Positions 1 to 64,000 of a stretch of 64,000 nt of DNA are shown here, in pieces. Under the pieces are notes generated by a model, which was not told the DNA's origin, did not search any database, and worked only from the letters and a program-made list of their open reading frames with translations. Each line of letters begins with the position of its first letter. Positions within the stretch are counted from its first letter, which is position 1. The translations under genes were made by a program, and so were the position numbers. The DNA comes from a virus (lineage: Duplodnaviria > Caudoviricetes): positions 31,087 to 95,086 of IMG/VR virus record IMGVR_UViG_3300032030_000041. The stretch is one strand, 5' to 3'.

Positions 1-186
1 TATACAAATATTTTGTATATGCCTAAAGTTAGGATCGTAAGCGATATTAACTTGCGATTGGGAGAAAGGGCTGATCCAACGGTGTCCGCGTTTGATATAA
101 TAGGGTTGCCGGAGACTGTCGGTGACGAATAGAATTTAATAGTTGAGATTTAGCATCTGGGAGAGGATTTGGATGCTGATATATGA
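1..186 (+). CDS. 3' end of probable tail-tube-like structural protein (partial; 2 in-frame TAG read as Gln)
   Basis: Frame 1 reads YTNILYMPKVRIVSDINLRLGERADPTVSAFDIIGLPETVGDE(Q)NLIVEI(Q)HLGEDLDADI-TGA. The PKxxIxS...GxxxDPxVxxF pattern resembles tail tube C-termini, and the gene lies just upstream of the tape measure gene. Confidence 0.5.
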
Positions 187-187
187 T

Positions 188-222
188 AGCCACTTTCTTG
201 CGAGAAAGTGGCTCTTTTTTTA
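188..222 (+). terminator. Intrinsic terminator
   Basis: AGCCACTTTCT-tgcg-AGAAAGTGGCT perfect 11-bp hairpin followed by a T-run. Confidence 0.8.
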
Positions 223-250
223 TTTTATGAGTAAAAGGAGATGAAAGGGA

Positions 251-3200
251 ATGGCTGATGCAATTTAGGTTCCAGTACGATTATAGATAGCGAATTTATA
301 GGACTTAGTGAAGAATCTATAGAGTACTTTGGGAAATTTAAAAATAGGCACAAAAGGTTATTAGGATGTTGAAAATGCAATTAAGAGAATTCAAAGTGAT
401 ATTGATAAACTACAGTTGCAGAGTTCTAAACCATTTGTTTCTGAAAAGCAATTTTCTACAGCGGATAAAACAGTATCTAAGTTAGAAGAAGATGTGAGTC
501 GTGTAACTTAGATGATGTCTCGTGTTAAATTTGGAGACTTAGAACTTAACAATACCCAAAAGGCGCAATTAAAAGATTTTGAAACACAAATTGAAAATGT
601 TAAGAAAGCAATTGAATCATTAAAGGGCGTCGCAAAAGCTGATTTTCTTGCTGGCGATATAGGTAAATTATATTCTGATCTTGACCCTGCGGCCGCAACT
701 CGATCTTTTGAAGATATTGGAAAACGTATTGATCAAGAAGTAGATAAATAGATACGAAGTGTTAAAGCGGCAGAAGATGCGCTAAAAGATTATTAGAATG
801 CATAGCGTGTGAATAACAACATTGATTAGTTTCTATCTGGTAAAAATGGATTAGATGCTAAGACAATGGGTAAGCAGTTATATGATAAAATCTTCTAGCA
901 AGTTTCTATGAAAAACGGAAATATGGTTACTCGTTTTACTGGAAAAGGGCGCAGTTTACTAGAAGATTATTTAACGCAATAGTATAGTTTAGATCCGGCT
1001 TTTGCCCATGATTTGGTAAGCGATAAGGCCAGCGAAGTATTAAAGTTAATATCAACTTCAAACGAAGCTTTAACAGCAAAATTATAGGCCATTAAGCAGC
1101 GTAATGCGGCGACTATTAATAAAAATTCTACAGCTAAGATTGCCGTAGATGAGGCATAGAAAAAACTCGATGATGCGTTAGCTATGAAGTAGACGCATAC
1201 TGATGCGGGAAAAACATTAGATGAATCTACTAGTAAGATGAATTCTGGACTAACTACACTAATTGAAAATTTTCATAAATGGCAGCAAGCTCAGGCTGCC
1301 GCAGCAGGAGCCTCTCCTGCTTTAACATCTAGTGTATAGCGTTTTAATTAGGAAATTCAAAATTTACGCACTAATTTAGCTTCATCTTCTTCTGAGTTCT
1401 TGAGATTACAACGTACTGCATCTAATTTTAATGCTATTAAAATGTCTATTGTTAATTTTATGGGCTTTAGACAAGTATTAAACGTAGTAAAACGAGGTAT
1501 TTCCGAAGCTGTTAATCATATTAAAGAACTAGATACTGTAATGAATGGTATTTCTATTGTTACAGATATGTCTACGAGTGATCTATGGGGTCAAGTTGAA
1601 GCCTATAGTGATATGGCGTAGAAATATGGTACTACTATAAAAGGTGCATATGAAGTTTCATAGATTTACTATCAACAGGGTTTGTCTACAAATGAAGTTT
1701 TAACATTAACAGACTAGACATTAAAATTAGCAAAAATTTCTGGACTAGATTATGCTACAACTACTGACTATATGACTACTGCTCTTCGTGGCTTTAAGAT
1801 GGAAGCAGAAGATGCGGGTAGGGTTGTAGATGTTTATAGTAACCTAGCCGCCCATACTGCAGTATCATAGGAAGAACTTGCAATTGCAATGAGTAAAACA
1901 GCTTCTTCTATGGAATCTGTCGGGGCAACATTTGAAGAAACCTCTGCAATGATTGGTACAATGGTTGCCGTTACTCGTGAATCTCCTACTAATATTGGTA
2001 GTGCTATGAAGAGTATCGCCTCTCGTTATGGTGAATTAACAAAAGATCCTACGATTTTAAAAGATAGTGAAGGCGAAGAACTAGTATTCAACAAAGTTGA
2101 TGCGGCATTACAGTCTGTAGGTATTTCAATGCATACTGTAGATGGACAATTCCGTTCATTTACTGAAGTTATTACTGAATTAGGAGAGAAGTGGGACGAA
2201 TTAGATAGCACACAATAGCGTTATATTGCTACTCAATTTGCTGGTAACCGTCAGCAATCTCGTTTCTTGGCTTTAATTAGTAATATTGATACATTTAAAG
2301 CAAATTTGGAATATGCTGAAGATAGTGAAAATACAGGTACTTTACAAGCTTTGAAATCACTTGATTCTATTGAAGCCAAAGCGGAGCAAGTACGTGTTGC
2401 TTATCAACAAATGTATACCTCCCTCGGTGCAGAAGAACTATGGAAAGATGTTCTTGACATCGTGCGCGGTTTTGTAAATACTCTTAATGGCTTATCTAAA
2501 CCAGGTGCTCTAGTAACATTGATTGATACTATTAAGACATTAAAAAATATAGGCATAGGTACAGTTAGTAAAGTTTCTGATTCATATTTTAATGGCAATG
2601 GTGTTCTCGGATGGCTAACTGGTGGTAAATATAGACAACAAATTTTAGAATAGGATAAGGCTAGAAAAGCATAGCATGAACCTTTAATGTCACATTTGTT
2701 TGGTGCCACTACACAAGCTAATACGGCAGTAGATAGCAAGCGCGCGGCAGAAGAAGGTGCCGCCGCAGCAGCAGAGCGAGAAGCAGCTGCTAATGAAAGA
2801 ACCGCCGCTGCAGCACAACAGGCGGCGGCTGCGAAATAGGAGAATAAGAGTGCGAATTCAGAAACGGCGACAAGTCAACCTCAATAGCCAACTACCGCAG
2901 TAGATTTAGCAACATAGTTTGCAGGAAACGGCGTTACCCAATAGTTAAAACGAAATTTTAATCTTAGCGGTGATATTGAAGCGATAAAAGGAGAGTTATC
3001 CAGTTCTCTTAATGCAGTTATATCTTAGACAGAAGGAGCAAGCGCAGCTTTAGCTAATGCTGGTAAATTAGGAGTTGAGCAATATTTAAATGGTATTATA
3101 TCTGGCATTCCGGAATTATCAGATAAGGCGGCTGAATTATCTGCAGCACTTGTCGAAGGTTTAAATATCAGTTGGCCATAGTCGGAGAGTCCTGTAAATA

Positions 3201-6200
3201 GTTTAAATATAGATAATTTAAAATCTCAAATTACAGAGTTTTCTCAAGCAGCTAATTTAGAGCCAATATGGATTGAAGCCCGTTTAAAATTTGTTGATGA
3301 AATACAGGCTTTGGATCCAACTATATTATCATAGATTTAGGAAGCAATTAATGCAATTGACTTTAGTTCTCCAGATTGGCAAACAGATTTTACCGCGGCT
3401 ATAGAGAAAATTAAAGAAAATGCAGCTAGTCTTGGTATTGATTTAACGCCAGCCTTCGAAAAAGCGGGTGAAAATGGTATTGCTGGACTTGTAGCTGGCT
3501 TATCTTCTGGGAATCCTGCCGCAGTTGCAGGTGAAAAAGGTACATAGGTCATTGAAGCATTAAAAGCTGGTATGGGCTGTCATTCTCCTTCTGTATTTGC
3601 AATGATTGCTGGTTAGAATGTTATTGCAGGTTTATCTGAAGGGATACAATCTTCTGCACAAGAAGCAGTAGATGCAGCAAATAAAGCAGGTACTTCTGTT
3701 ATCGATGCTTTAAAAGAAGCTATGAAGTTCGATGATAATAGTTTTGCGGCTTTCAAAGATAGCATACTTGCATAGATTGATTAGCTTGGTCCAGACGTTA
3801 GTGAAGGAATGAAAGCAAGTATGCGTCAAGTAACAAATAACTTGACATTTGAAGATTTTCTTGCAGGAAAAGCTCCTCCTGAATTTTATTAGTTTGCAGG
3901 TATGTATGGAAATGCTGTAATGCAATCTGGAGTAGCTTATGCTAAGCAGAATATTGATACAGCAGCATAGGAAAAAAGTGATGCTTTAGGCTCATAGTTA
4001 TTATTAAATGAAAATGGTTTAACTGCGGAGCAGCAAGCAGAGTATGATGCGAGAAAAAAAGCAATTACGGCTAAATATGATACAGAATTTAATGATTTAA
4101 AGAAACAAAGAAATTAGATTGAAGAAGAACAAGAAATTTTATCTTAGAAGAAGGCGAATTCTTCTTTATCTGAAGCCGAGCAAGCTAGATACGATGACTT
4201 AGAACGGCAGAAAGCAGAATTGACTTCTCGTATGGCTCAAATTAACGGGTCTCCACTAACCGCGAATAATTTTGGTGGCTTTAAAGGTCTTGAGTAGTAG
4301 GCAAAAGAAGCTTTAGATGCGGAATATAGGGCAGTCGCAGAAAATAATCAAAAATATAATCAAGGTTTAAATCGTGATAAAAATAGTATTACGGCTGATG
4401 CAGAGCGTGAAAAACAAAAAATAGAATCCGAAGGATAGCTAGCTGCAAATAAAAATGCTAGAGATTTAGAATATCAAGCAAGTCGAGATATATATGGAAA
4501 AGATGCTCGTGCTGTTTTTACTGAATTTGATAATCTAGTATAGAATCTTTCACATTAGCATAGAGAACAGGAAAAGGTTCAAGAAAGTGCAGCAGCATTT
4601 CGTGAAACTTATGGTACATCAACTCAAAATGCATCGGCTACAGCAACACCAGTGGATACGGCTGCAGTAGAAGCCGAAACTGCTGCAATTAATGAAAAAA
4701 CTGCGGCATTGGAACGAGAAAAATAGGCTCAGGAAGCAGTACCATAGACGCCAATAGATGTTACTGTAGATCCAGAAGAGGCTCAAGAATAGGGCGCTAT
4801 CGCTGGAGATGCTGCAGCTAGTGCATATGGAGAAGAGGTGAGCAATAAAAATGTGTCACCTTCTCCAATAAATAAGGGTGAAGCTGCAGAGGACGGTAAT
4901 GATGCAGGAACGACTGCAGGTGATAGCTACATTGCCGCAGTGCGTAATAACAATGCATCGCCATCTCCAATAAATAAAGACGAAGCAGTAAATGACGCTA
5001 ACGACACCGCAGCAGTTGCAGCTGATGCATATGGAGAAAAGGTGAGCAATAAAGATGTGCCGCCTCCTCAACTAAATAAGAGTCAAGCTGAGGAGGATGC
5101 CAAGGCTACAGCAGAACAGGCTCAAGCAGCAGCTGCTGCGGAAAAAGCTCAAGAAACCGCAGAACAAGATCAAGACGTTGTTGCAGAATTAGCAGAACAA
5201 GCTCAAGAAATTGCAGAACAAGCTCAAGAAGATGCAGAATCAGATACAGATAAAGGTGCAGAACAAGAGAAAAGCACTCCTGCAGAATAGTCATCCTCAT
5301 AGGATAGTTTGCCAGGAGCCTTATCTGCCGTTGCAGACACCGCAAAAGGCGCTGCTGCTGCGCTCTAGGATCTAGCTACTGCAGGTAAAGGAGCAGCAGA
5401 CGCAAATAAAGCAGGAGCAGAAGCGGAATAGGAAGAAAAAGATGCTGCAACTAGAAATGCTGAAGCTAAAGACAGAGAAGCAGAGGCGTCTAATGGTACA
5501 GAAGATGCTAAAACAAGAGAAGCAAGTGCTTCTGACCGTGCAGCAGATGCAGATAATCGCGAGGCAGGAGCGAGTGAACAAGCTGCAGCCACGAAAGGTG
5601 GTTTTGGTAGCGGGAATATAGGAGGTTTTTCTAGTACAAAATTAAGTCAATTAGGTAGCGGTCTTAGTATGCTAGCTGGGACTCTTCCAACATTACTATC
5701 CAAACATGGTGTAATGGATTAGAGATCTTCTGAAAGGCTTGGTGGAGGTCTGAATTTTGTTAGCGGTGCTGCTAAAGGAGTTGCTGGCTTTTTTTCTGGT
5801 AATCCTATGATGATTATTAGTGGCTTTATGAGCGTTCTTAATGGAATTGATCAATGGAACGAAGATGAAAAAGAAAAATTAGAACGTTTAACTAAAGAAT
5901 CTGAAGAGGCTAAGAATGAATCTTTAAAAGCTACTGGTGAATACAAAGAATTACAAAGCGCAGAAAAGAAACTAACTGATTTACGTGCTAAGAGGTATGA
6001 CAGCGAAGAAGATGCTGAAGCATATTAGAATGCCGTTAATGATTTAACTTCTAAATTTCCTCAGTTAGTTGCTAATTTTGATGAGGCTGGTAACGCTATA
6101 TTAGAAGAAACTGCACTTACCTAGGCTTTGACCACAGCACGTAAAGAAAGTGCATAGGCGGCCTATGATGCAGCGAAAGCTGAAGTAGCCAGAGCGAAAT

Positions 6201-9200
6201 AGGCAAAAGAGAATGCCTTGAGTGAAGCAAGAAATAAAATTACTTCTAGTTTAGACTATTTAGCTACTGGCCCAGATACATATGTTTCGCCTAAAAACAA
6301 TTCTGCGAGATATGCTAACTTACTTAATAATTCTTCATTAATGCAACGAGTTTTATGGGATAATTCGGGCGTATCAAACGATGCAAATTCAATAACTGAC
6401 TTTATAAATTCTTTTGAAAATGAAAATCTTGCATAGTAGGCATTTTTAACTGCGTTATATAATCAAACTAAAGATGGTGATTTATAGACATTTTTTAGAG
6501 AACATTAGTAGTTTGAAGGACTCTATCTTTCGACTGATGTCTTGGATGAATTATTGAATACTCCCGAAGAAGAAATTGGTCTTAAAGATAGCAATTTCTA
6601 GGAAGCCGTAGGATTTTTCCGTGCATTTCGTAATTTGGGTACATAGCGCAATGAAGCTACGGCAGAAGAACAAACAAAAGCTGCGAATGATATTAATCAA
6701 GCAATTACTCAACTTCATAATGATGCACGAGATGGAACGGGCGATTTAAATGCAGATTTAGAAAGTTTAAATAGTTTATTAACACAATATAGTGACGCTA
6801 AATACGGATTAACTGAAGATATTGCAAATGTACGTGATGCACTGAGTGGAGGTATTAGTAATCTTGATACTTTTAATAAAGAAGCAGCGCAATTACAAGT
6901 TGGTATAAAAAAATAGATTACTGAGAAATTACGGACTAATTTTGATCAATCGGCAGTAATTAACAGTAGTACTGGTATATTTGAATTAATTTCATCTAAA
7001 TTAAATTCTGATTATGAAGCTGCTTTAGAGTAGACGCCTGATTTAGAATTTGATGCTTGGTGGCTTAATACCGGAATGAACTTAGCTCAATCTTTAATGT
7101 CTTTAGGAGATAGTATTCTTAATCAAATGACCGATGCTTAGCAGAGTGAATTTAAGTCTATGATTAAGAATAATCGTTACTACAGTGCCGATACAGTTAA
7201 AAAATATTTAACAGAGCGAGGCTATTTAACCAACGAGGGGTGGGAAACCGAAGAAGGTAAGGCATTTAGCGACTCTATTGATTAGACTTTTGCTGCCCAA
7301 GAATAGGTACGAAAGGATTTAATTGAAAAATATGCGACACAAGGTACCAATTTATCTGGTATTCAAAAATTCCAAAATCGTATGTTGTCTTAGTTAGATA
7401 AAGATACAGCCACAGAAGCTACTCGCGCAATGTACAATGACATCATTAGTAAGTATGAAGATATATATAAGTATGGTGATGATTTATCTGCATCTTATGG
7501 TTAGAAGGCATTAATATTTACTTCTGCCGTAATGAGACTTCAAGATGAAGAGCGCATGTCTGTTTAGCAAGTTTTAGAGCAAACAGGTTATACTGCTGAA
7601 GGATTACGTGAAGCTGCTGATAAACTTCGTGAAAATAAAGATGATAATCTTACAGACAAATAGGCTAGTGATATTGCGAGTAAATTAGAAGCTATGGCAG
7701 ATACCATGCTTACTAATATTGGACTTACATTAGATGCTCAAATTGATGCTTTTGTTAACAATTGGTCAGATGCTTCTAAAAACATTTCTACTGGATTATC
7801 GGGCATGGATGCTACTTCTGCATAGAAATGGTTAACTGAGAATGCGAAGTATTTGGAAAAAGGTGGCTTAAAAGATCTAGATTTATCAGATTTAACTTAT
7901 GCAGATGGAAAATTTTATACCAGTATAGAGTAGTTACGAGCATATGAACAAGGATTTGCTGAAAATTATCGTGCACAGGTTAAAGCAGCTACTACAGAGT
8001 TAGATAATATAGTATCGAAAAATGGCTTAAAATCTACCGATCTTGCAAGTATTTCTGCAGAGGCCACAAGTTTAAACAAAGATTAGTAGACAGATATTAA
8101 TCAATTAGCAGCCTGGGCTTCAGAGATTGGTTTAACTGATTTATTTACATTTGAAGTAGATGAAGAAGGAAAATATACTGGTAATGCTAAACTGGCTAAG
8201 GGCACTGCAGAGGAAGCATACAAAGCCATATTAGCTAAAGCGCAAGAATTAAAAGAATCTGGAACACATGTAGACGACTATATTTAGAATTTTTATTAGG
8301 AGCAAATAGATACTTTACAAGATGCTATTGATGTAGGAGAATATCTTAGTTCTGAAACGCGTGGAAAGGATACTGAATCTCGTAAAACATTAGAAGATTA
8401 GATTAGCCGCTATTTAACTGCATTAGATGTAGCTGGAAAGTTACAATTACCAGAAAGTTATTTAAAAAAAGCTGGATCTGAGGCGAGAGAACCATTAATT
8501 AGAGAATATACTAAGGCGCTAATTAAAGATTTGGAAGCAGGCGGATTGCAAGCAGTACAAGCTTTAAAGACCCTTAATCCCGATGCAACTTCTGAAGAAT
8601 TAGAACAAGCCTATTCTTATCTTTTTACTGAATGGCAACAAGCATTTGAATAGCTTAGTTCTATTGAAGTTGGCTCACTAGCCACTGGTAAAGTTAAAGA
8701 TATTCTTTTCGGTCTTCATATGGTTGATGAAGATGGTGTCGTTAATGCTACTTTTGATATGGTAGAAGCTTATACGGCTATCTATACTGAAATGAAGTCT
8801 ACTGCTGGCGCAACTACTGCCGATCTGAACAAAACCTATGCTGAACTTCTTACTGCTAAAGACCAACGTAATATGGATGTCACAGAGATGCTCGAAAATG
8901 CGTCCGGAATGACATACGATGCATTAGGACAAATCCTAAGTCGTTATAATATTAGACTTGAGGACGCGTTAGATGATGCTGCTGGTTATGGTTTAGAGAG
9001 TACAGGCTTTGGAAAAGTTCGTTTAACCAATTGGGAAGCTTTTGCCAAGAAGGTATTTAAGACTGAAGATTTAGCGGCGATTGCAAATACGCCAGAGTAT
9101 ATTAGCGCTTTTAAGGCTTATAATGATGGGCTTATTGAGTTAAATAAAAATACTGAAAAGGTTATAGTAGATGAAGTTAAGTAGATTGAAAGTGCAAAAG

Positions 9201-12200
9201 AGGGAGATTGGCTTAATTTAACCGAGTTTGGGACTTAGTATGTTACGGCATTAACAAAAAGTATTAATTTAGGAGATTATCTTGATTTAACTAATAATGA
9301 TTTAGGGATCGCATAGAAATTATAGATAGAAGCCGAAAAATATAATGAACAAATTATTCCTAAATTAAATAAAGAGCTTAATAAATGGGGCGCAAAGTTT
9401 GAGGATGGTATTCTTAAAATTGGTGATAACGCTAACTTATTAGGCATTGCTTAGACGTTAGAATAGGCAGCACAATAGGCAGGCTTAGATATCGGCAGTG
9501 GACTCGAAGAAGTTAAAGATGCTGTTCTTAATATTTTAAAATCCTATGCTGAAGCTATTACAAAAGGAATTTCTGGTGGTTTAACTAATACAGAAATGAG
9601 TGATTTAAAAACCAAAGCCAGAGATTTTGGAATTACAGACCTTCAATTTGTAGAAACTGCAGAAGGATTTAAATTAGTAAAAACTTCAGCTATAGAATTA
9701 TATTCTGCTTTAAAATCAATTGATGCCTTACATGCTGAACAAGCTTTTGATGCATTAAATGAATCATTACAAAAATCAGACGAACACTTTAAAACTACTG
9801 GAGCTTTAATGGCACATATTGCTAGTCTTCGTAAAGAGTTATATGCGGCAGATAATCAGGTTTCCAGTGCTAGAAAAGAGTAGTATGAAGCAGAATTAGC
9901 AGTTGCAGAAGAAATTCTTGCTGTTCGTTCAACTACTGAAGATGATTCTTTTAAGTTTATGGATTAGGCTATTCCTTCTGGTTAGAACAATCCATTAAAT
10001 TATTGGGAAGGCTGGCAAAAGGCTTTTAATGCTATAAATGAAAGCAAAAAAACAAAGCGTATGGATTATACCGATTTCTATAATTTGATGACAGAAATGG
10101 GTAATCTTTCTGCAATGCTTGGTGGAAAAGGTATTTAGATAGGTAAAGATTTAGAAGTTAATTCACAGAATTATGCTGATTTAATTACTAATGCTGCACG
10201 TAATTTAACTACTACCGCAGATAATACCAATTTACAAGTTAATTTACCTGCAATCGATGTTGATTTTAGTTCTGCTGAAAATATGGTAAGTGATGTTTAG
10301 AGCGGTATCCAAGCTGTTGCAGATGACCAAATTAATATGCTTGATGGATTAATTGCATTATTAGAAACTATTGTTGCCATGGAGAAATTAAATGATATTG
10401 TCGGCGGCGGTAGTGAGGATAATGCAATTGATTTAGGAGATATTTTCCCTGAAATTCGTTTTGACGCTTAGGGCAATGCTATTAATCCAGAGGCGTTAAC
10501 ATATGTGGAAGACTATTCTGATTTTATTAAGTATATTCGTCAATAGGCCGTTCATAATGATGATTTAGCGAAAGCATTACAATCAATGAAATTAGATGGT
10601 ATTTCTTTAGCAGAAATTTTTGAGATGGATGCCACTACGCTAGGTAAAAAGGGATAGAAATTTGTTACTGCGTATACTGCATTACTTGAAAGTCTACGAC
10701 AAGCCTCTATATCTGGAGATTATGATGTAGATAATATTATGGCTAGCGTGAAAAACGTTTTGGCTGAATCAGGTTTAACTGATTTAACAATTGATACTGG
10801 TAAAGCTACATTGATATTCTCTGGCGGCACTATTACACAAGTTAATTGGGAAGAACCCAATACTGCAGAAGTAGTAGAATAGGTAACGGCTCGTTTACAG
10901 GTAGATACAGAAAAAGCAAGATAGGCTGTTATAGATGCCGAGCAAGCGTATGCAAAAGGTAAGGGTACTGGCGAATTAACTCTTCAAGAAGTTTTAATTG
11001 TTGAAGGTAAAATTAAAATAGATCCAGAAACAAAAGAATAGTCTATATAGGTTGGTAATAGTACTTATAAATCAAGTGATAGTAAGTGGCAAGGCGCGCT
11101 TGAAGCACAAAGTCTCCTTAAAATGGGGATAGATAGTAAAAATATATAGATAGAAGATGACCGAGCACTATCTACTGAGTATCATATAGGTAATAAATTC
11201 AATATTACTGTAGAAGCTAAAGACGGTATTACAACTATTACAGGCACTGGAGCATATGGTGAAACAATTACTGGTAATAATCAAGATGAATGGTTAAAGA
11301 ACTATATATCAAGTTTCCGTGAATATTCCTTAAAATATGGAGAAACAGAAGCAGCTAAATGGACTGATAGTTAGATCTTATGGCGCACTTTAAAGATTCG
11401 AGTCAATACAGAAACTAAAGTTATAGATGAAAAAGGAAATGCCATAGATCTTTCTAATGATGCTGCTCGTCGTAAAGAGCTAACTGATATTCGAAATTAG
11501 TTACAAGCAGGGATGTCCGCAAAAGATTTGGGATTTACCGACTCTGGTGACGGCAACTGGGTTAAGACCTTAGAAACTGGCGGAACATTAGTTGTTGATG
11601 GAAGTAAGATTAAAGTAGACGTAGAAGGGAATCCAGATACCGCATAGTTTACTTCAGAAATAGAGTCTAGTCTAGGGATTGATCAGGCATTAAAAGATAC
11701 TATTTCTGCTGGAATTACTGCGTCAATTCCTTCTCTAACTCAAGCCTTAAATACAATTGATGCTCAGCCAGTTCAAGACGTTGCAGCGGCAATTTCTGCA
11801 ATTGCCACTGATGCGTAGACTGCTGTAACTAATATCTAGAACTTAGCTACTAATTTAGCTCAATTACAAACTCTTTCTCCAGAAAATAGTACTGGACAAG
11901 CAGCACAAGACTTAATACCTTCTTCACTTGAAATCCCGCTTAAATTAAAATAGGACGATGTAACAGCAGTACAAACATAGCTTAAGTCCTTTGAAGGTGA
12001 AGCTAAAATTGATGCTGACACGAGTGATTTTGATGATAAAGCAGAAGAAGTTAAGGGCACCTTAGATACAATTGGACTCGGCGCTGAGGCAAAAATTACT
12101 GTAGTCGATCAGGCTTCTGTTATTTTATCTCACATAGTTTCACTATTAAGATCAATTAATAGCAAAAACATTACTGTAACTACTACTTATGAAACAATAG

Positions 12201-51170: not shown

Positions 51171-51174
51171 TTTA

Positions 51175-52185: not shown

Positions 52186-52214
52186 ATTATACACTAATTT
52201 TTATTAAAAGTCAA
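52186..52214 (-). promoter_or_regulatory. SigmaA-type promoter
   Basis: TTGACT-17-TATAAT; the -35 contains the upstream TGA. Confidence 0.85.
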
Positions 52215-52831: not shown

Positions 52832-52833
52832 TA

Positions 52834-53578: not shown

Positions 53579-53871
53579 TTATTCCTCCTAATACCACAGA
53601 CAGGACAGAATTCATCATTATCATATAGAATGCTAACAGTTTTACATTCGGGGCACTTATAGGCTAAGACTTCATCGGTAGTAATGGTTGGCGCTGTATC
53701 AATTACATTTTGCGCCTTCTCCATAAGTTCTCTTGCGAATTCAAAGACTCTCTCTTCATCGCATTCTTCCCAATTTAAAGAATATTCATTCATTAAATCA
53801 CGTATCATGCCATCTCTATCCATAGATGGCGCATTGAGGTCGCAGTCATCACGATAAATTAATTCACGCAT
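53575..53871 (-). CDS. Hypothetical zinc-ribbon protein
   Basis: MRELIYRDD...IDTAPTI...CPEC...FCPVCG. Confidence 0.7.
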   Translation of the reverse strand: MRELIYRDDCDLNAPSMDRDGMIRDLMNEYSLNWEECDEERVFEFARELMEKAQNVIDTAPTITTDEVLAYKCPECKTVSILYDNDEFCPVCGIRRNK

Positions 53872-53939
53872 GGTATCTCTCCTTCTTCTACAATGCACCA
53901 TTGTATTACTTCTTTTGTTACATCAAACATTAGACTGTA

Positions 53940-54242
53940 TCATTCCAAATAATTCCTTTCTCCATCGGCGCAGAAAAAATCATCCTCCTGCACTACCATT
54001 GAATATTCATAAAATGGACAATTGTCGAATTCTCGCTTCCAACAATCTTTACACCGGATAACAGGTTGTCTGTCCTCAATGGCAATAGCGCAGTTTTCAC
54101 AATTGTTCTGCTCTTTCAGTAGAGAAAGAGCATCTGAAATAGTTTGCCCAATCTTAATACACATTTCTGGAGTAACCATATTTGGATTACATAATACCGC
54201 TTTTGCGATATTCATATTTTCTATAATTTTCTCTCTGTCCAT
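53940..54242 (-). CDS. Hypothetical Cys-rich phage protein
   Basis: MDREKII...VIRCKDC...DDFFCADGER, a pattern common in Firmicutes phages. Confidence 0.7.
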   Translation of the reverse strand: MDREKIIENMNIAKAVLCNPNMVTPEMCIKIGQTISDALSLLKEQNNCENCAIAIEDRQPVIRCKDCWKREFDNCPFYEYSMVVQEDDFFCADGERNYLE

Positions 54243-54273
54243 TCATTTTCGCCTCTATTTTCCTTTCGTAAAT

Positions 54274-54302
54274 ATTATACTATAAATTTAAGATTATGTC
54301 AA
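54274..54302 (-). promoter_or_regulatory. SigmaA-type promoter
   Basis: TTGACA-17-TATAAT. Confidence 0.85.
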
Positions 54303-54346
54303 TTTTTTGATCTAGCGCCTTGGCGCGATAGCGCCAACCGGGCGCC

Positions 54347-54528
54347 TTTTTATTTTTTATATAATTTATATTTATTTATAGTATTTATATTTCTCTATTC
54401 AATTTGACCATACCCCTCTATTCAATTTGACTCAATTTCTATGTCAAATTGACTATACCCCTATATTCAAATTGACTATAGGTTCGAGTCAAATTGACAT
54501 AAGTATTTTTTATCTATGTCAAATTGAC
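54347..54528. repeat. Iteron-like array (6 x KTCAAWTTGAC) with adjacent AT-rich tract: putative replication origin or operator array
   Basis: Copies start at 54398, 54421, 54443, 54466, 54488 and 54518 (spacing 23/22/23/22/30); ~45 nt of almost pure A/T at 54347-54392. Confidence 0.75.
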
Positions 54529-54914
54529 TATAGGTCTGGCCGCGCGATAAAATCATAAAGAGGGCAACTTAATCCATCTTTATCGGTAACATTTTCATGC
54601 ATAAAGATAAGAAAGCCCTTTTCTATAAGTTCATTTACTGCGCGATTATAAGAAGAATCGCTAATGCCAGTTTTTGCTACTACATCTACTTTACTTAAGC
54701 CACCTACATATCCATCTTGATTAGAAATAAGATAAATATAAAGTTTAAAGCCTTTTTCACTTAATTCGCGGCTAGCATAAAATAAATCTTCTTTAAATAA
54801 ATCAGATATACGTACATCATTATTACGCTGCTTTTCGCGCACTTTCTTTACTCGAAATACTTTTTGATTCTTATTCAGACTATAATCTGAACTAGTTAAT
54901 TTTACATTTGCCAT
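54519..54914 (-). CDS. Winged-helix protein resembling replication initiators (ends at 54528 if TAG stops)
   Basis: LSEKGFKLYIYL...LSKVDVVAKTGISDSSYNRAVNELIEKGFL; the 3' end overlaps the repeat array. Confidence 0.7.
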
Positions 54915-54926
54915 TTGGGTTCCTCC

Positions 54927-55115
54927 TTATCGCTTAGATTGCGATATACGGCGGAAAGCTTCTTGAAACTCTGGTGAATCTTCAAATATCCATACTTTAA
55001 ATTCTGGATTATATTCATTTATGTCAGTACCTATAATTTTAAAGCCTTCACGCCTAAGTTGTAAGGCTATCCAACGAGTATATACTCGATAGCCTTTATT
55101 TTGTAATTTTGTCAT
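54927..55115 (-). CDS. Small hypothetical protein (DUF5659-like)
   Basis: VYTRWIALQLRREGF...NPEFKVWIFEDSPEF. Confidence 0.6.
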   Translation of the reverse strand: MTKLQNKGYRVYTRWIALQLRREGFKIIGTDINEYNPEFKVWIFEDSPEFQEAFRRISQSKR

Positions 55116-55294
55116 CTATGCTCCTCCATAATTTCTTCCATTTTATCTAGCAATTTTACCGATGGATTTTTTGTTCCTTTAAAAATGCGGCTTAAATGTT
55201 CTTGACTACATCCAATTGCTTCCGCAGCTTCAGTTTGATTCCATCCTTTATTATAAGTAAATAGTTCATATTGTTTTATAATATCTCGTGTCAT
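55112..55294 (-). CDS. XRE/Cro-family helix-turn-helix regulator
   Basis: GWNQTEAAEAIGCSQEHLSRIFKGTKNPS. Confidence 0.85.
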   Translation of the reverse strand: MTRDIIKQYELFTYNKGWNQTEAAEAIGCSQEHLSRIFKGTKNPSVKLLDKMEEIMEEHR

Positions 55295-55329
55295 ATACTC
55301 ACCTGCCTCTAGGACATAATTTAGGATAA

Positions 55330-55366
55330 GAAAAATATGACCTATCCTCCATAGAATAAGTCATAA
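55330..55366 (-). terminator. Probable intrinsic terminator
   Basis: ATATGACTTATTCT-atgg-AGGATAGGTCATAT (with G-U pairs) followed by TTTTC on the - strand. Confidence 0.55.
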
Positions 55367-55379
55367 TATAACCTTTGAA

Positions 55380-55898
55380 TTATATTAAATCTTTTCGTTC
55401 CATACAAAATTTTTTCAAAGCGTCGGGGCTTGTAAAAGTAAGTCCATTTAAATAACTTTCAGTATCAAACAAATATGCTACCTGTTCGCGCCGCCATTTA
55501 TCTTCTCTATACTTTGCAAGTGGCCATCCAAGCTCTACTGCTAATTCATCATCTGGGAGAGTTACTTGGTCTTCTAGATTTGGATCGAAAGGATCAATCT
55601 TTTCCCATCCAAAATCCTCAGAATAAGAGGCTGGATAGAACTCTTCAAAGTCGTCAGTTTCATTTATATAGCCAGAAACGCGACTAAAAATAAAACTCCA
55701 GCATCGAAATTTCTTTTCTTGTGGCTCAAATACCACAAATGAATAGCAGCTATTATCTTCCCAAAAAGGATTATCATCCCATTTTTCAATATGATCTACA
55801 CTATGAGGATCGGTTATAGTAAAAGTTTGTTCTGAATCATATCTGCCTACGAGGGTATCATGAATAGGAAAATTTTCAATACAATTTTTAAATGTCAT
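55380..55898 (-). CDS. Hypothetical protein
   Basis: 172-aa acidic/aromatic ORF. Confidence 0.65.
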   Translation of the reverse strand: MTFKNCIENFPIHDTLVGRYDSEQTFTITDPHSVDHIEKWDDNPFWEDNSCYSFVVFEPQEKKFRCWSFIFSRVSGYINETDDFEEFYPASYSEDFGWEKIDPFDPNLEDQVTLPDDELAVELGWPLAKYREDKWRREQVAYLFDTESYLNGLTFTSPDALKKFCMERKDLI

Positions 55899-56236
55899 TA
55901 GTAATCATACTCCACAAATAGTTTTCTATTCTTAATTTTATTCTGCTCCCATCCTAATACCTCATCGCGCAGTTCGCACAGTTGAGGTACAGAGTCATAA
56001 GTTCCGAAGTAATCACGATGAGTACAAGCAACCCTAATCATTTCTTCGAGTTCTTCACTGCCAATCCTAATAAGCTCGCCGGACTCATAATTCTTAGGTA
56101 TGAATGACCAATTCTTAACCATATCCCAATTTTTGCGCCAGTACATACGCTCTTTTATGATGTCAGAAGAATACCAATTTTCATCCTTAAATGCCTTATG
56201 ATTTGGCGCTTCTAATATGTAGCAATCCATTCCCAT
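55898..56236 (-). CDS. Conserved phage hypothetical protein (MGLD...YWRK type)
   Basis: MGMDCYI...MYWRKNW. Confidence 0.7.
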   Translation of the reverse strand: MGMDCYILEAPNHKAFKDENWYSSDIIKERMYWRKNWDMVKNWSFIPKNYESGELIRIGSEELEEMIRVACTHRDYFGTYDSVPQLCELRDEVLGWEQNKIKNRKLFVEYDY

Positions 56237-56330: not shown

Positions 56331-57587
56331 TTATTTATCTTTTAATATAAGATTAAGTACAATACCTATAAGCATTGCGAGTGCAGTAGTTCCAATACTT
56401 ACAATACCAAAATTACATACTGCGCCGGAAACGCCTAGCGTTAGTACAGCTGCAATAATAGTAACGTTCTTATTATTATTCAAATCGATATTGCTATCTT
56501 TAATAGTACGAATACCAGATAGAGTAATATAACCATAGAGAATGGCGGCGCAGCCACCAAAAATTGCGCTTGGAATTGATACTAGGAAAGCCTGAAGTGG
56601 GCCAATAAATGCGGCAATACCCATTATTACAGCCGCGAGAGTAATTACATATTTGGAACAAATCTTACTAAAACCTGTAGTACCAACACTCTCACCATAG
56701 CTAGTATTTGGCATAGCACCAATAAGAGTACCAAGAGCAGTTGCGGCACCATCACCCATTAGAGTGTAGCCGAGGCCGGGTTTCTGTGTTAAATCGGTTC
56801 CAATTACAGCACTTAAGGCCTTATGATCTGAAGTATGTTCACAAATTGTAACTAGACTTAGAGGCAAGAACAGTAGTAGAATCTGTGGTAGATAGCTCCA
56901 ATCCCAAGTTCCAAAATGTAGGAAAGCAAAGTCAGGTAGTTGGAATAGTTTTACTCCATTAAATACACTAAAATCAATAATTGGAACTCCGCATACTGTA
57001 AGAATTGCGGCGAAAGCATACACAATTAGAATTGCTACTAGGAAAGGTAAGTTTTTAATAAAACCTTTTCCATAGTGAGAGATTAGCGCTGTAATAAGTA
57101 GTGTTAGCATTCCCAATCCAAATCCAATTAAACTATATTGTCCATTGATTTGGAAATAAGTAGGCAGGAATGTAGCTAGATTTAGGCCAATGACTGCTAC
57201 AATAGGGCCAATTACAACTGGCGGTAGTAGTTTGTTAATCCAAGCAGTACCAAAATGATTGATAGCAAGCCCAACCGCAAAATAAATAGCACATACAATT
57301 AAACCGCCAATAAATACAGCCAAATAATTTGGAGCAGTTCCAAGTGCGAGTGCTCCCATTACTGCGGCGACAAACGCGCCAGAAGAACTAATAAACATAG
57401 GACTCTGGCCGTGAGTAATTAGCTGATATAGAAGAGTACCAAGAGCTGCACCTAGCATAGATGGCGCAATAGGTACTCCACAAATCTGCGGGATTAGTAC
57501 GGTAGCAACGAAACAAGCAACAACCTACTGCATTGCAGCGACAAGCAGTCTTTTTGCAGGTAGCTTGTCATTAATATTATATAACAT
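56331..57587 (-). CDS. Uracil/xanthine permease (NCS2, UraA/PyrP-like), 418 aa, single TAG at codon 21
   Basis: RBS AAGGAG and ATG at 57587; MQ(Q)VVACFVAT, SSSGAF, PPVVIGP, EHTSD, GDG, PNTSYGESVG, GG...LYG. Confidence 0.9.
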
Positions 57588-57601: not shown

Positions 57602-58015
57602 TTAATCTTTAAAATGTCTAGTTAATGGTTCTAAATTATCACTTACTACTGTTTCAGTAGTATAGTGCGGCGTATGACAATTATCTGGGTTAGTATAGTT
57701 CTAAGCGGTAACATTAGGGTCTACTTGATTTACATTAGTACAATAGGTAATAGAATCGGGATGAATCCTAAACATATTATCATCGCATGTAATTTTAGTT
57801 CTCCACCATTCATCGCATGGATTTACTGTAATCTTATTCCAAGAAGTAGAAGGTGAACAGTCACATTGCCTTACCCAAGGGGCATTGATGCGGCCGCAAC
57901 GAGGACATTCCCATCCTTTTTCAGCACTATAAGAGGGACTATTGTAAGTATAAGTTGTACTTGTACTAGTTCCTTTAACTGTTTCTCCAGTCTAAATTTT
58001 ATTTGTTGTTTGCAT
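57602..58015 (-). CDS. Zinc-ribbon hypothetical protein, 137 aa, 2 TAG (not in the ORF track)
   Basis: RBS GGAGGT; GWECPRCGRINAPWVRQCDC. Confidence 0.7.
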
Positions 58016-61917: not shown

Positions 61918-62478
61918 TTAAATCAAATTTAAGTCTTTTAAAATTGTTTCTGCGCCATCTTTTAACTCTTCTAAGTCGCCTTCGTTATGTAATACATAAT
62001 CGAAACTATAACAGTCAAGTGAAGTTTCACTTGGGTGATTACGCTGATCGTCTGTTAGAGCTGGATTAATCCATTCCGTGCCATCTTCATTCTTGCGCTC
62101 AATTCTTACTGCTACGCAATTTTTAATACCTTGTAGCGCGATATCAATTTCATTGGGGAATCGCGCATCTGGTACTATAGCTACATCAAAATTATTATAT
62201 GGCTCAAAGGCTTGGATTAATCCTACAACAATTCCAGTCCAGAAATTGGGATGACAAGCACGTACAATATCCGTGCCAACCTGCTGTAATAAGGTTCTTC
62301 CTACTTCATCTTTCTTACCATCCCAATCCATGAAATCACGCAGGAACCATTTAAGCGCATCAGCGTAATGGATTAATAATACACGTTTTCCTTTCTTTTC
62401 AAGAGCTTCACGCATATACTGCGCGGTAACATCTTTTCCAGAACCAGATTTACCAGATAAAATAATTGTTTGTTTCAT
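61918..62478 (-). CDS. P-loop (deoxy)nucleoside monophosphate kinase-like protein
   Basis: LSGKSGSGKD, YADALK, RTLLQQVGTD, PDARFPNE, HPSETSLD. Confidence 0.8.
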   Translation of the reverse strand: MKQTIILSGKSGSGKDVTAQYMREALEKKGKRVLLIHYADALKWFLRDFMDWDGKKDEVGRTLLQQVGTDIVRACHPNFWTGIVVGLIQAFEPYNNFDVAIVPDARFPNEIDIALQGIKNCVAVRIERKNEDGTEWINPALTDDQRNHPSETSLDCYSFDYVLHNEGDLEELKDGAETILKDLNLI

Positions 62479-62666
62479 CGTCTTAGCACTTCCATTTGTA
62501 AGTTAAAATAGAACTGTAAAAAATCCTATTCCTCTTCAGAGTGAGCTTTAGTATATTCAGACAAGAGCTGCGTAGCGCGCTCAGGTGATAATATAGACGC
62601 AAGCCGCCAAACATCTGCGGCTTCTTGTCTTAATTTATCATTAATATTGGCAAATAGTTCAATCAT
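62475..62666 (-). CDS. Hypothetical protein, 63 aa, 1 TAG (not in the ORF track)
   Basis: MIELFANIND...EEE(Q)DFLQFYFNLQMEVLRR-TGA; the TGA overlaps the next ATG only if TAG is read through. Confidence 0.65.
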
Positions 62667-62982
62667 GTTTCTCACCCTTTTGAATTTTATTAAGAATATC
62701 AAAGAAAGCTTGAACTTCTTCTTTGCTTTCTAATTGATATTGGCGAATTTTCTTGGGCGCCAGTCTTTCATTATCTGCAGGCAATTCATATATATAGTAG
62801 GTTTCATTCTGATCTGCATCAATAACTCGCTTGGTAATTACCTGACCTGTGCGTTTGCTAACTAACTTAATAATAACACAGTCGTCTTCATAAACTTTTT
62901 CCATGTCAAAACAGTCAGTTTTCATTTCTCCTACTAAGCCTGCATACTCGTTGCGCCCGACTTCATAAATTTCATCGTTCAT
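62659..62982 (-). CDS. Hypothetical protein
   Basis: 107-aa ORF overlapping both neighbours. Confidence 0.7.
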   Translation of the reverse strand: MNDEIYEVGRNEYAGLVGEMKTDCFDMEKVYEDDCVIIKLVSKRTGQVITKRVIDADQNETYYIYELPADNERLAPKKIRQYQLESKEEVQAFFDILNKIQKGEKHD

Positions 62983-63490
62983 TGTCTAATCCTCGGAAAC
63001 TATCCTTTAAGTCCTGAGCTACTTCTTGAGCGAATCTATCACATTCATTATTCCAATAATTGTCAGCATGGCCTTTTACCTTTGAAAAGCTATACCAGAA
63101 GTTTTCAAAATATGGAATAATTTGAACCCATAAATCTTGGTTTGCGACATCTTCACCTTTAGAATTAACCCATCCATTAATTTGCCACTTGTTATACCAT
63201 TGCTGCTTATAACAGTTAATGGCATAAGCTGAGTCACTGTAAATAATGACACGTTCATTAGGATGCCGGTTGAGGCGTGCGTACTCTAAGGCATTGCGAA
63301 TTGCTAATAATTCCATTCGCTGATTTGTGGTGTCCTGTTCGCCGCCGCAAGCCCGGTATTGAAATTCACCTCCACGTAGGGCAACAAAGCTCCAGCCGCC
63401 AAAACGTATTTTGGCTAAACTTTTACATGACCCATCTGTGTAAATTTCTAAAGCTGCAATTTGTTCTGCACTACGTTTTCCTTGAACCAT
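62972..63490 (-). CDS. rnhA: Ribonuclease HI
   Basis: IYTDGSC, TTNQRMEL, YSDSAY, VANQDLW, KVKGHA, NNECDRFA. Confidence 0.95.
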   Translation of the reverse strand: MVQGKRSAEQIAALEIYTDGSCKSLAKIRFGGWSFVALRGGEFQYRACGGEQDTTNQRMELLAIRNALEYARLNRHPNERVIIYSDSAYAINCYKQQWYNKWQINGWVNSKGEDVANQDLWVQIIPYFENFWYSFSKVKGHADNYWNNECDRFAQEVAQDLKDSFRGLDNER

Positions 63491-63512
63491 TTTACATCCT
63501 CCTTTTTAATTT

Positions 63513-63541
63513 ATTATACACTAAATTAAAAAGAATGTCAA
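63513..63541 (-). promoter_or_regulatory. SigmaA-type promoter
   Basis: TTGACA-17-TATAAT. Confidence 0.85.
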
Positions 63542-63985
63542 TTATTTGAGGAAATCATTCTTCTCTAGGCGCTCTTTATAAAGTGCCTAAATCCATTCAT
63601 ATTCGGCATTGAATACGCCATTTTTATCCCCTGTCTTTTCTAAGAGCGCTTCATACTTATCATGAAGTTCAGCAATATGTTTGAATTCGTCATGAGAATG
63701 ACGACGCCCATTGCGGCAAGAGTTAGCGAAATCTAAAATTTCCCAGCGTATTCTGTCTTTTTCATTTGCATCCATATTATCCTATAAGTTAGTAACCTAT
63801 TTGGCTATGTTTTTAATCTTATCATTAATATCATGAGTTAAATTTTTCCCAATCCATTTGATAAAAGAAGTAATAGGATTCCACTTAATAGGGGTAATTT
63901 GGATGAAAACGGAGCATATTAGGAGGACTTGGACAAAATTGTGAACAAGCCAATCTAATATGCGCTCAAGCTATGCTTGATTCAT
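63542..63985 (-). CDS. Holin-like / lysis-cassette membrane protein, 147 aa, 4 in-frame TAG
   Basis: RBS GGAGGTG; MNQA(Q)...VLLICSVFIQITPIKWNPITSFIKWIGK...RIRWEILDF...YE...EWI(Q)ALYKERLEKNDFLK. Resembles a family I recall next to endolysins in Firmicutes phages; the holin function is not established. Confidence 0.6.
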
Positions 63986-64000
63986 ATGGGTCTCACCTCC

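What the first reader, a model, noticed from the sequence alone, without database searches (positions are those of the whole stretch)
1..64000. Phage with TAG reassigned to a sense codon (Gln; genetic code 15)
Seen: the main fragments of three long + strand genes share one frame each and are broken by TAG, including tandem TAG-TAG at 4295, 6434 and 6506. These genes have an RBS and ATG at the start and TAA at the end. Nearly all intact genes end in TAA or TGA. TAG sits at positions where Gln is expected (RuvC ENI*L*, TMP STQ*RYIA, permease MQ*VV). Read-through restores conserved C-termini (GIY-YIG GYN, holin-like NDFL) and ATGA overlaps. Established: TAG-to-Gln recoding is known in gut phages such as Lak and some crAss-like phages. 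Inference: this example infects a Firmicute. No suppressor tRNA, synthetase or release factor is visible in this window.
Basis: partly seen in the sequence, partly recalled or inferred. Interest (0 to 1): 0.8.

Follow-up and report, generated by a model that had tools for sequence, protein, structure and literature searches.

The report
Rumen phage reads TAG as glutamine
This is about half the genome of an uncultured sheep and goat gut phage that reads the stop codon TAG as glutamine in its virion and other late genes; that is a known trick, but close relatives of the same lineage read TAG as glutamate or keep the standard code.

Summary
With TAG read as sense, the window gives a 4,854-aa tape measure gene (123 TAG), a 630-aa gene (8 TAG) and a 1,843-aa tail gene (35 TAG). 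Each has an RBS, an ATG and a final TAA, and none has an internal TAA or TGA.

Six comparisons all give Gln at TAG: distant portal homologues, four cultured standard-code phages, standard-code members of the same clade, a complete standard-code relative, codon exchange with close relatives (TAG with CAA/CAG), and a goat-gut strain that has CAA where the window has TAG.

TAG density is 18 per 1,000 codons in the virion block and 1.3 in the replication block.

The contig is a fragment (95 kb, about 54% complete) with no tRNA. Complete relatives (182-190 kb) carry a tRNA array headed by an unusual 85-88-nt tRNA(CUA). They have no release factor, GlnRS/GluRS or GatB.

The phage belongs to the SPbeta/E3/EF1-like siphoviruses of Bacillota, so it is a new member of a known kind (code 15 phages).

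The surprise lies in relatives, not in the window. Three clade members read TAG as Glu with a different tRNA(CUA), and others use the standard code.

The parts
1..186 (+). 3' end of a 294-aa virion structural gene (phrog_2729) that starts upstream of the window; 6 in-frame TAG in the whole gene
251..14815 (+). Tape measure protein, 4,854 aa, 123 in-frame TAG (40% of its Gln-type codons), tandem TAGs at 4295, 6434 and 6506. PF10145 covers residues 454-665 across five TAGs. Short Cys-X3 block near the C-terminus.
14823..16715 (+). 630-aa gene in the distal-tail-protein position, 8 in-frame TAG, no family match
16738..22269 (+). 1,843-aa tail or host-recognition protein, 35 in-frame TAG, C-terminal Cys-every-fourth-residue tract of about 160 aa (weak phrog_6085 match)
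22709..23458 (-). RuvC-like Holliday junction resolvase, 249 aa, 7 in-frame TAG; the PHROG match is full length only after read-through
24795..25280 (-). 161-aa unknown gene, 1 TAG near the N-terminus
25281..26315 (-). GIY-YIG homing-endonuclease-like protein, 344 aa, 12 in-frame TAG
29897..30982 (-). 361-aa unknown gene, 5 in-frame TAG; its start overlaps the dnaE stop by 4 nt (translational coupling)
23458..24252 (-). dUTPase gene. It is TAG-free, as are the FNT-type transporter (26368-26919) and NrdG (26900-27400). NrdD (27400-29727) has one TAG, upstream of its table-11 GTG start. All are interleaved with the TAG-bearing genes.
30979..56236 (-). Replication and nucleotide-metabolism block compatible with the standard code: PolIII alpha, RecJ-like, DnaB-like, AAA_24, gyrase/topo IV A and B, GIY-YIG and others. 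It has almost no in-frame TAG.
38242..38244 (-). TAG at the end of the DnaB-like gene. It is followed at once by the RBS (AAGGAGAG) and ATG of the next gene, with a back-up TGA 7 codons later. It probably acts as a stop before the code switch, and it is conserved in relative G003.
56331..57587 (-). Uracil/xanthine permease, 418 aa, one TAG at residue 21 inside TM1. The table-11 ORF would lack the first 43 residues.
57602..58015 (-). 137-aa unknown gene with 2 in-frame TAG
62475..62822 (-). 115-aa unknown ORF with 2 in-frame TAG
63542..63985 (-). 147-aa gene (phrog_37604) with 4 in-frame TAG

Best explanation
The window is the right-hand two thirds of a 95-kb fragment (about 54% complete) of an uncultured ruminant-gut siphovirus of the SPbeta/E3/EF1-like lineage. 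Its full genome is probably 140-190 kb. The phage uses genetic code 15: TAG is translated as glutamine, and TAA and TGA remain stops. Recoding is concentrated in genes needed late: packaging, head, tail, the giant tape measure, and a few nucleases interleaved in the replication operon. Replication genes are readable with the host's standard code, and at least one seems still to end at TAG. The inferred model has three steps. Early genes are read by the unmodified host ribosome. A phage-encoded amber suppressor tRNA(CUA) then accumulates. It lies in the part of the genome missing here and heads the tRNA array of syntenic relatives. Only then can TAG-bearing late genes be completed. No phage release factor, GlnRS/GluRS or GatB was found in the clade, so charging must rely on host enzymes. 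Shown: the TAG-sense frames, Gln as the meaning, the early/late partition, and the suppressor in relatives. Inferred: that this phage carries the same suppressor, the timing, and the charging route.
For: Frames: one open frame each with 123, 8 and 35 TAG and no internal TAA/TGA, with RBS, ATG and TAA. The 4,856-codon open run compares with at most 283 in shuffles.

Family matches span the TAGs at full length: portal phrog_2739 38-492/501, phrog_4088, phrog_4051, PF10145 2-201/201, RuvC phrog_827 3-158/161.

Meaning of TAG:
- Against 130 distant portal homologues the summed log2-odds over 8 TAG columns is Q +13.8, next H +0.3, S -5.6. Controls for Q, S, L, Y, E, K and W recover the right residue.
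- Against four cultured standard-code phages, Q is opposite 29 of 160 aligned TAGs, against 5.5% background (p = 1.5e-8).
- In clade members with 0-3 in-frame TAG, Q is opposite 68 of 140 TAGs.
- Against the complete standard-code relative G009, Q is opposite 30 of 128 TAGs, against 3.7% background.
- Codon partners of TAG against G001/G003 are CAG 25, CAA 20, GAA 7, TCG 4, with no TAT, TAC or TGG.
- TerL columns alternate TAG with CAA/CAG.
- Goat-gut strains have CAA where the window has TAG at 3890-3892.

Partition: TAG per 1,000 codons is 18.3 in the virion block, 9.4 in the mixed block and 1.3 in the replication block.

Machinery: relatives G001-G004 (TerL 78-97% identical) carry 18-26 tRNAs including a conserved tRNA(CUA). 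The window's right end is 90% identical to G001 and G003 sequence that lies 28-31 kb from that tRNA.

Published precedent: Borges et al., bioRxiv 10.1101/2021.08.26.457843; Peters et al., PMC9523058; Babkin et al., PMC10607447.
Against: No suppressor tRNA is present on this contig, so its presence in this phage is inferred from synteny only. The conserved tRNA(CUA) of the relatives is atypical for tRNA-Gln: 85-88 nt, a 19-nt variable region, missed by Rfam tRNA, and a weak tRNA-Sec-like score. Its amino-acid identity cannot be read from sequence. A minority of TAG sites align with E, S or K. There is no peptide evidence. The RNA-library contigs that cover the TAGs do not prove transcription.
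Confidence: 0.9

Rival explanations
1. TAG is a sense codon here but stands for another amino acid (Glu, Ser, Leu, Tyr or Pyl), not Gln.
For: Sister genomes of the same clade read TAG as Glu. The relatives' suppressor has a long variable region like class-II tRNAs and scores weakly as tRNA-Sec. About 11% of TAG partner codons are Ser and 11% are Glu.
Against: For this genome and its closest kin every test gives Q first by a wide margin: portal log-odds Q +13.8 against S -5.6 and E below the listed top six, Q 6-fold enriched against E 1.4-fold in comparison with G009, and no TAT, TAC, TGG or TTG exchange. The same tests give E for the Glu-type genomes, so they can tell the two apart.
Confidence: 0.04
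2. The host itself reads TAG as sense, so the phage needs no machinery of its own.
For: No suppressor, release factor or synthetase lies on this contig.
Against: The replication block avoids TAG 14-fold relative to the virion block, which a TAG-sense host would not require. A TAG sits exactly where the DnaB-like gene's stop is expected. Relatives carry their own tRNA(CUA). A complete standard-code member of the clade exists. No bacterial lineage with TAG = Gln is known to me (background knowledge).
Confidence: 0.03
3. The TAGs are damage or artefact: a decaying prophage, sequencing or assembly error, or RNA editing to CAG.
For: None beyond the fragmented appearance under table 11.
Against: There are 166 TAG and no TAA or TGA in 7,327 codons of the three genes. 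The same TAG positions recur in dozens of independent assemblies from several studies. Contigs from an RNA library are identical to the DNA across the tandem TAGs. Substitution patterns show purifying selection (mostly synonymous or conservative changes).
Confidence: 0.01
4. Low-efficiency natural read-through by host near-cognate tRNA-Gln, without a dedicated suppressor.
For: No suppressor is seen on this contig.
Against: A protein with 123 TAGs could not be completed at the read-through rates typical of near-cognate decoding (background knowledge). Relatives encode a conserved tRNA(CUA) whose stems covary.
Confidence: 0.02

Closest known systems
phAss-1 / proposed 'Phassvirus' group of human-gut siphoviruses (Babkin et al. 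2023, PMC10607447; OQ749652)
   Same: Large siphovirus-type genomes with TAG read as Gln in TerL, portal, tape measure and tail genes. They have a long tape measure (3,149-3,209 aa), large tRNA sets with tRNA(CUA), no dedicated synthetase, and kinship to Enterococcus EF1-like phages.
   Different: TerL is only 33% identical. This clade comes from ruminant guts, its complete genomes are 162-190 kb, its tape measures are 4,854-5,511 aa, and its suppressor is an atypical 85-88-nt tRNA.
Stop-codon-recoded gut phage clades of Borges et al. (bioRxiv 10.1101/2021.08.26.457843), especially 'Agate' (large genomes, cattle representative, members with codes 11, 15 and 4)
   Same: Standard-code early genes, recoded structural and lysis genes, suppressor tRNAs, Firmicutes or Bacteroidetes hosts, and changes of code over short evolutionary distances.
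   Different: Membership in Agate could not be tested because their genomes are not held here. No RF2 was found in this clade. A TAG=Glu state is not described in that paper.
Code-15 crAss-like phages validated by metaproteomics (Peters et al. 2022, PMC9523058); crAss-like phage cr113_1 (NC_055896.1)
   Same: TAG = Gln. cr113_1 carries a 91-nt tRNA(CUA), annotated tRNA-Gln, with the same anticodon arm and variable region as this clade's suppressor.
   Different: They are unrelated podovirus-like Crassvirales of Bacteroidota. The acceptor end differs: C1-G72 and A73 in cr113_1, against U1-A72 and G73 here.
Cultured SPbeta/E3/EF1-like siphoviruses of Bacillota (Geobacillus virus E3, Enterococcus phage VRE9_4, Brevibacillus phage Sundance, Alicyclobacillus phage KKP_3916)
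   Same: TerL is 30-36% identical. The portal (phrog_2739) and the order of PHROG families in the virion module are the same, and all have a very long tape measure.
   Different: They use the standard code (89-97% ORF cover under table 11). Their tape measures are about half as long (about 2,440-2,670 aa).

Membership tests
Genetic code 15 (TAG=Gln) stop-codon-recoded phage | In-frame TAG in otherwise intact conserved genes, while TAA and TGA still terminate | tested here: met
Genetic code 15 (TAG=Gln) stop-codon-recoded phage | Homologues that use the standard code carry Gln opposite TAG more than any other residue | tested here: met
Genetic code 15 (TAG=Gln) stop-codon-recoded phage | TAG exchanges with CAA/CAG like a synonymous codon among close relatives | tested here: met
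Genetic code 15 (TAG=Gln) stop-codon-recoded phage | Phage-encoded suppressor tRNA with anticodon CUA | tested here: inconclusive
   Absent from the 95-kb contig, which is about 54% complete. Present in syntenic relatives G001-G004.
Genetic code 15 (TAG=Gln) stop-codon-recoded phage | Recoding concentrated in late or structural genes, with early genes readable in the standard code | tested here: met
   (18.3 against 1.3 TAG per 1,000 codons)
Genetic code 15 (TAG=Gln) stop-codon-recoded phage | Peptides with Gln at TAG positions | not testable with these tools
   No proteomic data available here
SPbeta/E3/EF1-like large siphoviruses of Bacillota | Homologous TerL and portal and a collinear virion module with a long tape measure | tested here: met
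SPbeta/E3/EF1-like large siphoviruses of Bacillota | Bacillota host | not testable with these tools
   Indirect only: all 128 GenBank phage records with a TerL match are listed under Bacillota genera or as uncultured; one Clostridia-MAG contig
Proposed genus 'Phassvirus' (phAss-1) | High genome-wide nucleotide similarity to phAss-1 (genus-level threshold, background knowledge of ICTV practice) | tested here: not met
   TerL protein is only 33% identical
'Agate' clade of Borges et al. | Placement in their TerL phylogeny | not testable with these tools
The genome size range and cattle origin are compatible.

The most novel reading that the evidence does not exclude
This phage is the Gln branch of a single ruminant-gut siphovirus lineage in which the same stop codon has three states: a stop, Gln or Glu. 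Each sense state comes with its own tRNA(CUA). The Gln-type genomes have an atypical 85-88-nt tRNA with U1-A72 and G73. The Glu-type genomes have a 74-75-nt tRNA with G1.U72 and A73. Both share one anticodon arm. The two meanings could differ only in whether the host amidotransferase GatCAB accepts a suppressor that was first charged with Glu. I found no report of TAG=Glu in a phage in the library searched.
Probability: 0.45. Interest if true: 0.8.

Novelty: new member of a known kind. Interest (0 to 1): 0.5.

Why it matters
For the window itself, the result means the contig must be annotated with table 15. Otherwise the tape measure, tail, portal, terminase and several nucleases fall apart into fragments. 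Two PHROG families that match the two halves of TerL may be such fragments.

For the field, the lineage offers a natural three-way comparison within 50-80% protein identity: TAG as stop, as Gln and as Glu. Complete genomes exist for each state, and each sense state has its own suppressor tRNA. That makes two questions directly testable: how a phage picks the amino acid for a captured stop codon, and how fast the choice can change.

The tape measure genes (4,854-5,511 aa) are about twice the length of those in cultured cousins. By the usual rule of about 1.5 Å per residue (background knowledge), they predict tails of about 0.7-0.8 µm.

Tried and rejected
IMG/VR relatives were used instead.
- High ORF cover with TAA as sense (91.9%) was rejected as an artefact of AT-rich DNA. 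TAA ends 56 of 93 ORFs in the genome.
- TGA recoding in relatives L021, L044, L046 and L054 was suggested by ORF cover and then rejected: no TGA lies inside any homologous alignment. These are standard-code members.
- The ARAGORN 'tRNA-Phe(AAA)' at contig 1102-1175 is not matched by Rfam and was treated as doubtful.
- PDB sequence search with the RuvC-like protein gave no hit.
- A similarity search with the Glu-type tRNA(CUA) gave only weak tRNA-His-like hits and says nothing about identity.
This was not pursued.
- The careful maximum-likelihood TerL tree did not finish, so only the quick tree is reported. TerL of L054, L061, L063 and L071 aligned only in part and was left out.
- Contigs from the RNA library cover the TAGs but cannot show transcription.
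- No structure prediction or complex prediction was run, because none bears on the question.
Full report
WHAT IS IN THE WINDOW

The window is bases 31087-95086 of a 95,086-bp virus record. The record has no terminal repeat, and CheckV estimates it to be about 54% complete. G+C is 37%.

Under table 11 the + strand between 251 and 22269 breaks into short ORFs. With TAG read as sense it gives three genes:
- 251-14815: 4,854 aa, 123 TAG
- 14823-16715: 630 aa, 8 TAG
- 16738-22269: 1,843 aa, 35 TAG

Each gene starts with ATG behind AAGGAG or GGAGG, ends in TAA, and has no internal TAA or TGA. The tandem TAG-TAG at 4295, 6434 and 6506 are in frame. The TAA/TGA-free run of 4,856 codons compares with at most 283 in shuffled sequence.

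Cover by ORFs of 100 aa or more rises from 71.0% to 95.6%. The rise seen with TAA as sense is an artefact of AT-rich DNA.

The first gene is a tape measure protein. PF10145 matches over its full length at residues 454-665, across five TAGs.

On the - strand, TAG-bearing genes are interleaved with TAG-free genes and often overlap them by 1-4 nt.
- TAG-bearing: RuvC-like resolvase (7 TAG), GIY-YIG endonuclease (12), a 361-aa unknown (5) and a 161-aa unknown (1).
- TAG-free: dUTPase, an FNT-type transporter and NrdG. NrdD has a single TAG, which lies upstream of its table-11 GTG start.

From 30979 to about 56236 lies a replication block with almost no TAG: PolIII alpha, RecJ-like, DnaB-like, AAA_24, gyrase/topo IV A and B, and others.

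Upstream of the window, the same contig has TerL, portal and head and tail genes with 1-8 TAG each. Their PHROG matches are full length only after read-through.

WHAT TAG MEANS HERE

Six comparisons were made.

1. Distant portal homologues. I aligned 130 homologues (26-43% identical) from an exhaustive HMMER search and scored the 8 TAG columns. The result is Q +13.8 bits, next H +0.3, S -5.6. The same scoring recovers Q, S, L, Y, E, K and W for columns where the query has those residues.
2. Four cultured standard-code phages (Geobacillus E3, Enterococcus VRE9_4, Alicyclobacillus KKP_3916, Brevibacillus Sundance). Gln is opposite 29 of 160 aligned TAGs, against 5.5% background (p = 1.5e-8). The sites include conserved ones in TerL (276, 419), portal (155, 272, 460) and tape measure (656).
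3. Clade members whose virion modules have 0-3 in-frame TAG. These have true CAA/CAG Gln opposite 68 of 140 of this genome's TAGs.
4. The complete standard-code relative G009. Gln is opposite 30 of 128 TAGs, against 3.7% background.
5. Codon partners. Against the close relatives G001 and G003, TAG pairs with CAG 25 times and CAA 20 times. GAA follows with 7 and TCG with 4, and TAT, TAC and TGG never appear. TerL columns alternate TAG with CAA and CAG.
6. Strain variation. An independent goat-gut assembly covers 3800-7800 at about 98.6% identity. It keeps the tandem TAGs and has CAA where the window has TAG at 3890-3892.

TAG = Gln is therefore well supported. Artefact and decay are excluded.

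EARLY AND LATE GENES

TAG density per 1,000 codons is 18.3 in the virion block, 9.4 in the mixed block and 1.3 in the replication block. TAG makes up 37%, 21% and 3.6% of Gln-type codons in the three blocks.

The DnaB-like gene has a TAG at 38242-38244. It is followed at once by the RBS and ATG of the next gene, and a TGA follows 7 codons later. The arrangement is conserved in G003. This is what a real stop looks like, so TAG probably still terminates before the switch.

The partition is not absolute. The permease at 56331-57587 needs read-through at residue 21 to make its first transmembrane helix. That TAG aligns with His of E. coli UraA, not Gln.

The most abundant virion proteins have 0-1 TAG: the 372-aa phrog_4088 protein and a 318-aa phrog_2729 protein. 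They use CAG almost exclusively for Gln.

MACHINERY

The contig has no credible tRNA. It also has no release factor, GlnRS/GluRS or GatB, and neither do its complete relatives.

A TerL search of IMG/VR gave 69 related loci. Complete relatives are 182-190 kb with terminal repeats and carry 18-26 tRNAs.

In G001-G004 the tRNA array is headed by a conserved tRNA with anticodon CUA. Its features are:
- 85-88 nt long and 59-67% G+C, in a genome of 38% G+C
- an invariant anticodon loop CUCUAAA
- a 19-nt variable region
- pair 1-72 = U-A (A-U in G003) and discriminator G

Nine of its 23 base pairs show compensatory changes. Rfam's tRNA model misses it, and it scores weakly as tRNA-Sec (34 bits, below the threshold of 47).

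Its only look-alike in GenBank phages is a 91-nt tRNA(CUA) of crAss-like phage cr113_1, annotated tRNA-Gln. The two share the anticodon arm and variable region, but the acceptor end differs.

The window's last 4 kb are 90% identical to G001 and G003 sequence that lies 28-31 kb from this tRNA. I therefore infer that the missing part of this genome carries it. That step is inference, not observation.

WHAT KIND OF PHAGE

TerL is 30-36% identical to TerL of large siphoviruses of Bacillus, Geobacillus, Enterococcus, Brevibacillus and Alicyclobacillus. The order of PHROG families in the virion module is the same as in Enterococcus phage VRE9_4.

Runs that hold the sequence come from sheep, goat and bovine gut metagenomes. 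Relatives' tRNA arrays contain the Rfam families ROOL, cow-rumen-3 and cow-rumen-4.

A 90%-identical permease contig is binned with a Clostridia MAG from a water buffalo. This is weak evidence. A Bacillota host is likely but unproven.

COMPARISON WITH WHAT IS KNOWN

TAG=Gln phages with standard-code early genes and recoded late genes are established. The sources are Borges et al. (10.1101/2021.08.26.457843), peptide proof for crAss-like phages (PMC9523058), and the phAss-1 group of related siphoviruses with 3,149-3,209-aa tape measures (PMC10607447).

This phage is not a Phassvirus, since TerL is only 33% identical. It may belong to Borges' 'Agate' clade, which has large genomes, a cattle representative and several codes. 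I could not test that.

The verdict for the window is a new member of a known kind.

WHAT TURNED UP IN RELATIVES

The same tests gave a different answer for three clade members: L059 (genome G006, 163.5 kb), L061 (G008, 172 kb, terminal repeats) and L063.

- In standard-code clade members, the majority residue opposite their TAGs is Glu at 30/56, 63/107 and 31/71 sites, with Gln at only 3, 8 and 5. Twenty-four other loci give Gln.
- Among the three, TAG pairs with GAA 136 times and GAG 30 times, against CAA 16 and CAG 6.
- Scoring against the 130 distant portal homologues gives E +15.0, +8.2 and +4.1.
- Against G009, G008 has Glu opposite 126 of 283 TAGs (background 8.7%) and Gln codons opposite at most 9.

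G006 and G008 carry a different tRNA(CUA). It is 74-75 nt long with G1.U72 and A73, and it shares the exact anticodon arm of the 86-nt tRNA. An exact-pattern scan found it in only three IMG/VR contigs.

G009 is complete, uses the standard code (89% ORF cover under table 11) and has no tRNA(CUA). In a quick TerL tree, Gln-type (25 rows), standard-code (3 rows) and the one Glu-type row that could be included (L059) are interleaved inside one clade.

I found no report of TAG=Glu in phages in the library searched. The Lak study noted some TAGs aligned with E but read them as Q (PMC8346664). The library is not exhaustive.

One possible link rests on background knowledge and is untested. Most Bacillota make Gln-tRNA by charging tRNA-Gln with Glu and then amidating it with GatCAB, which is reported to recognise the U1-A72 pair. 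A suppressor that GluRS accepts would then give Glu or Gln depending on that second step.

Noticed in passing
L059, L061, L063 (relatives; genomes G006 and G008); tRNAs at L147:13845-13919 and L148:8570-8643: Three members of the same phage clade have in-frame TAGs that align with Glu, not Gln. Glu is the majority residue at 30/56, 63/107 and 31/71 sites. TAG pairs with GAA 136 and GAG 30 times, against CAA 16 and CAG 6. Against G009, Glu is opposite 126 of 283 TAGs. They carry a different, 74-75-nt tRNA(CUA). I found no report of TAG=Glu in phages in the library searched.
   Followed up: partly
L102:5503-5588, L103:5157-5242, L105:3528-3615, L106:3546-3630 (relatives G001-G004); L145:591-681 (crAss-like phage cr113_1): The suppressor of the Gln-type relatives is an atypical, G+C-rich 85-88-nt tRNA(CUA) with a 19-nt variable region. 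Covariation supports its stems, Rfam's tRNA model misses it, and it scores weakly as tRNA-Sec. An unrelated crAss-like phage has a tRNA(CUA) with the same anticodon arm and variable region, which suggests horizontal spread. Its charging route is unknown.
   Followed up: partly
window 251-14815; G001 1625-18160 (-); G003 80547-96602 (-): The tape measure genes are 4,854, 5,511 and 5,351 aa. That is about twice the 2,440-2,670 aa of cultured cousins and longer than the 3,149 aa of phAss-1. They predict tails of about 0.7-0.8 µm if the usual 1.5 Å per residue holds.
   Followed up: partly
window 21787-22269 and about 14225-14356: The 1,843-aa tail protein ends in about 160 aa with Cys at every fourth residue. 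A shorter block of the same kind sits near the C-terminus of the tape measure protein. Only a weak match to phrog_6085 (unknown function) was found.
   Followed up: no
L103:16551-17130; L105:7192-7337; L103:7910-8053; L106:3635-3779; L102:4394-4456, L103:4710-4775, L105:3087-3150, L106:3086-3153: The tRNA arrays of relatives carry ROOL RNA (266 bits), cow-rumen-3 RNA (in G004 directly 3' of the suppressor tRNA) and cow-rumen-4 RNA (0.4-1.1 kb upstream of the suppressor in all four genomes). None of these is on the window's contig.
   Followed up: no
contig 24461-25579 and 29378-30334 (upstream of the window; L002:6461-7579 and 11378-12334): The probable major head and tail proteins (372-aa phrog_4088 and 318-aa phrog_2729) have 0-1 TAG and use CAG almost exclusively for Gln. 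Their neighbours carry 6-8 TAG. The same holds in G001 and G003. This may mean that suppression is costly for the most abundant proteins.
   Followed up: no
L002:1069-2961 (TerL, upstream of the window): The read-through TerL matches two separate PHROG families of unknown function: phrog_15503 at residues 51-247 and phrog_24618 at 391-624. These families may have been built from table-11 fragments of recoded phages.
   Followed up: no
No Rfam family reaches even E = 0.05 there.
   Followed up: partly
L054, L061, L063, L071 (TerL region): TerL aligns only in part (334-397 residues in one piece) in these four relatives. The gene may be interrupted there, for example by an inserted element. This was not examined.
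   Followed up: no
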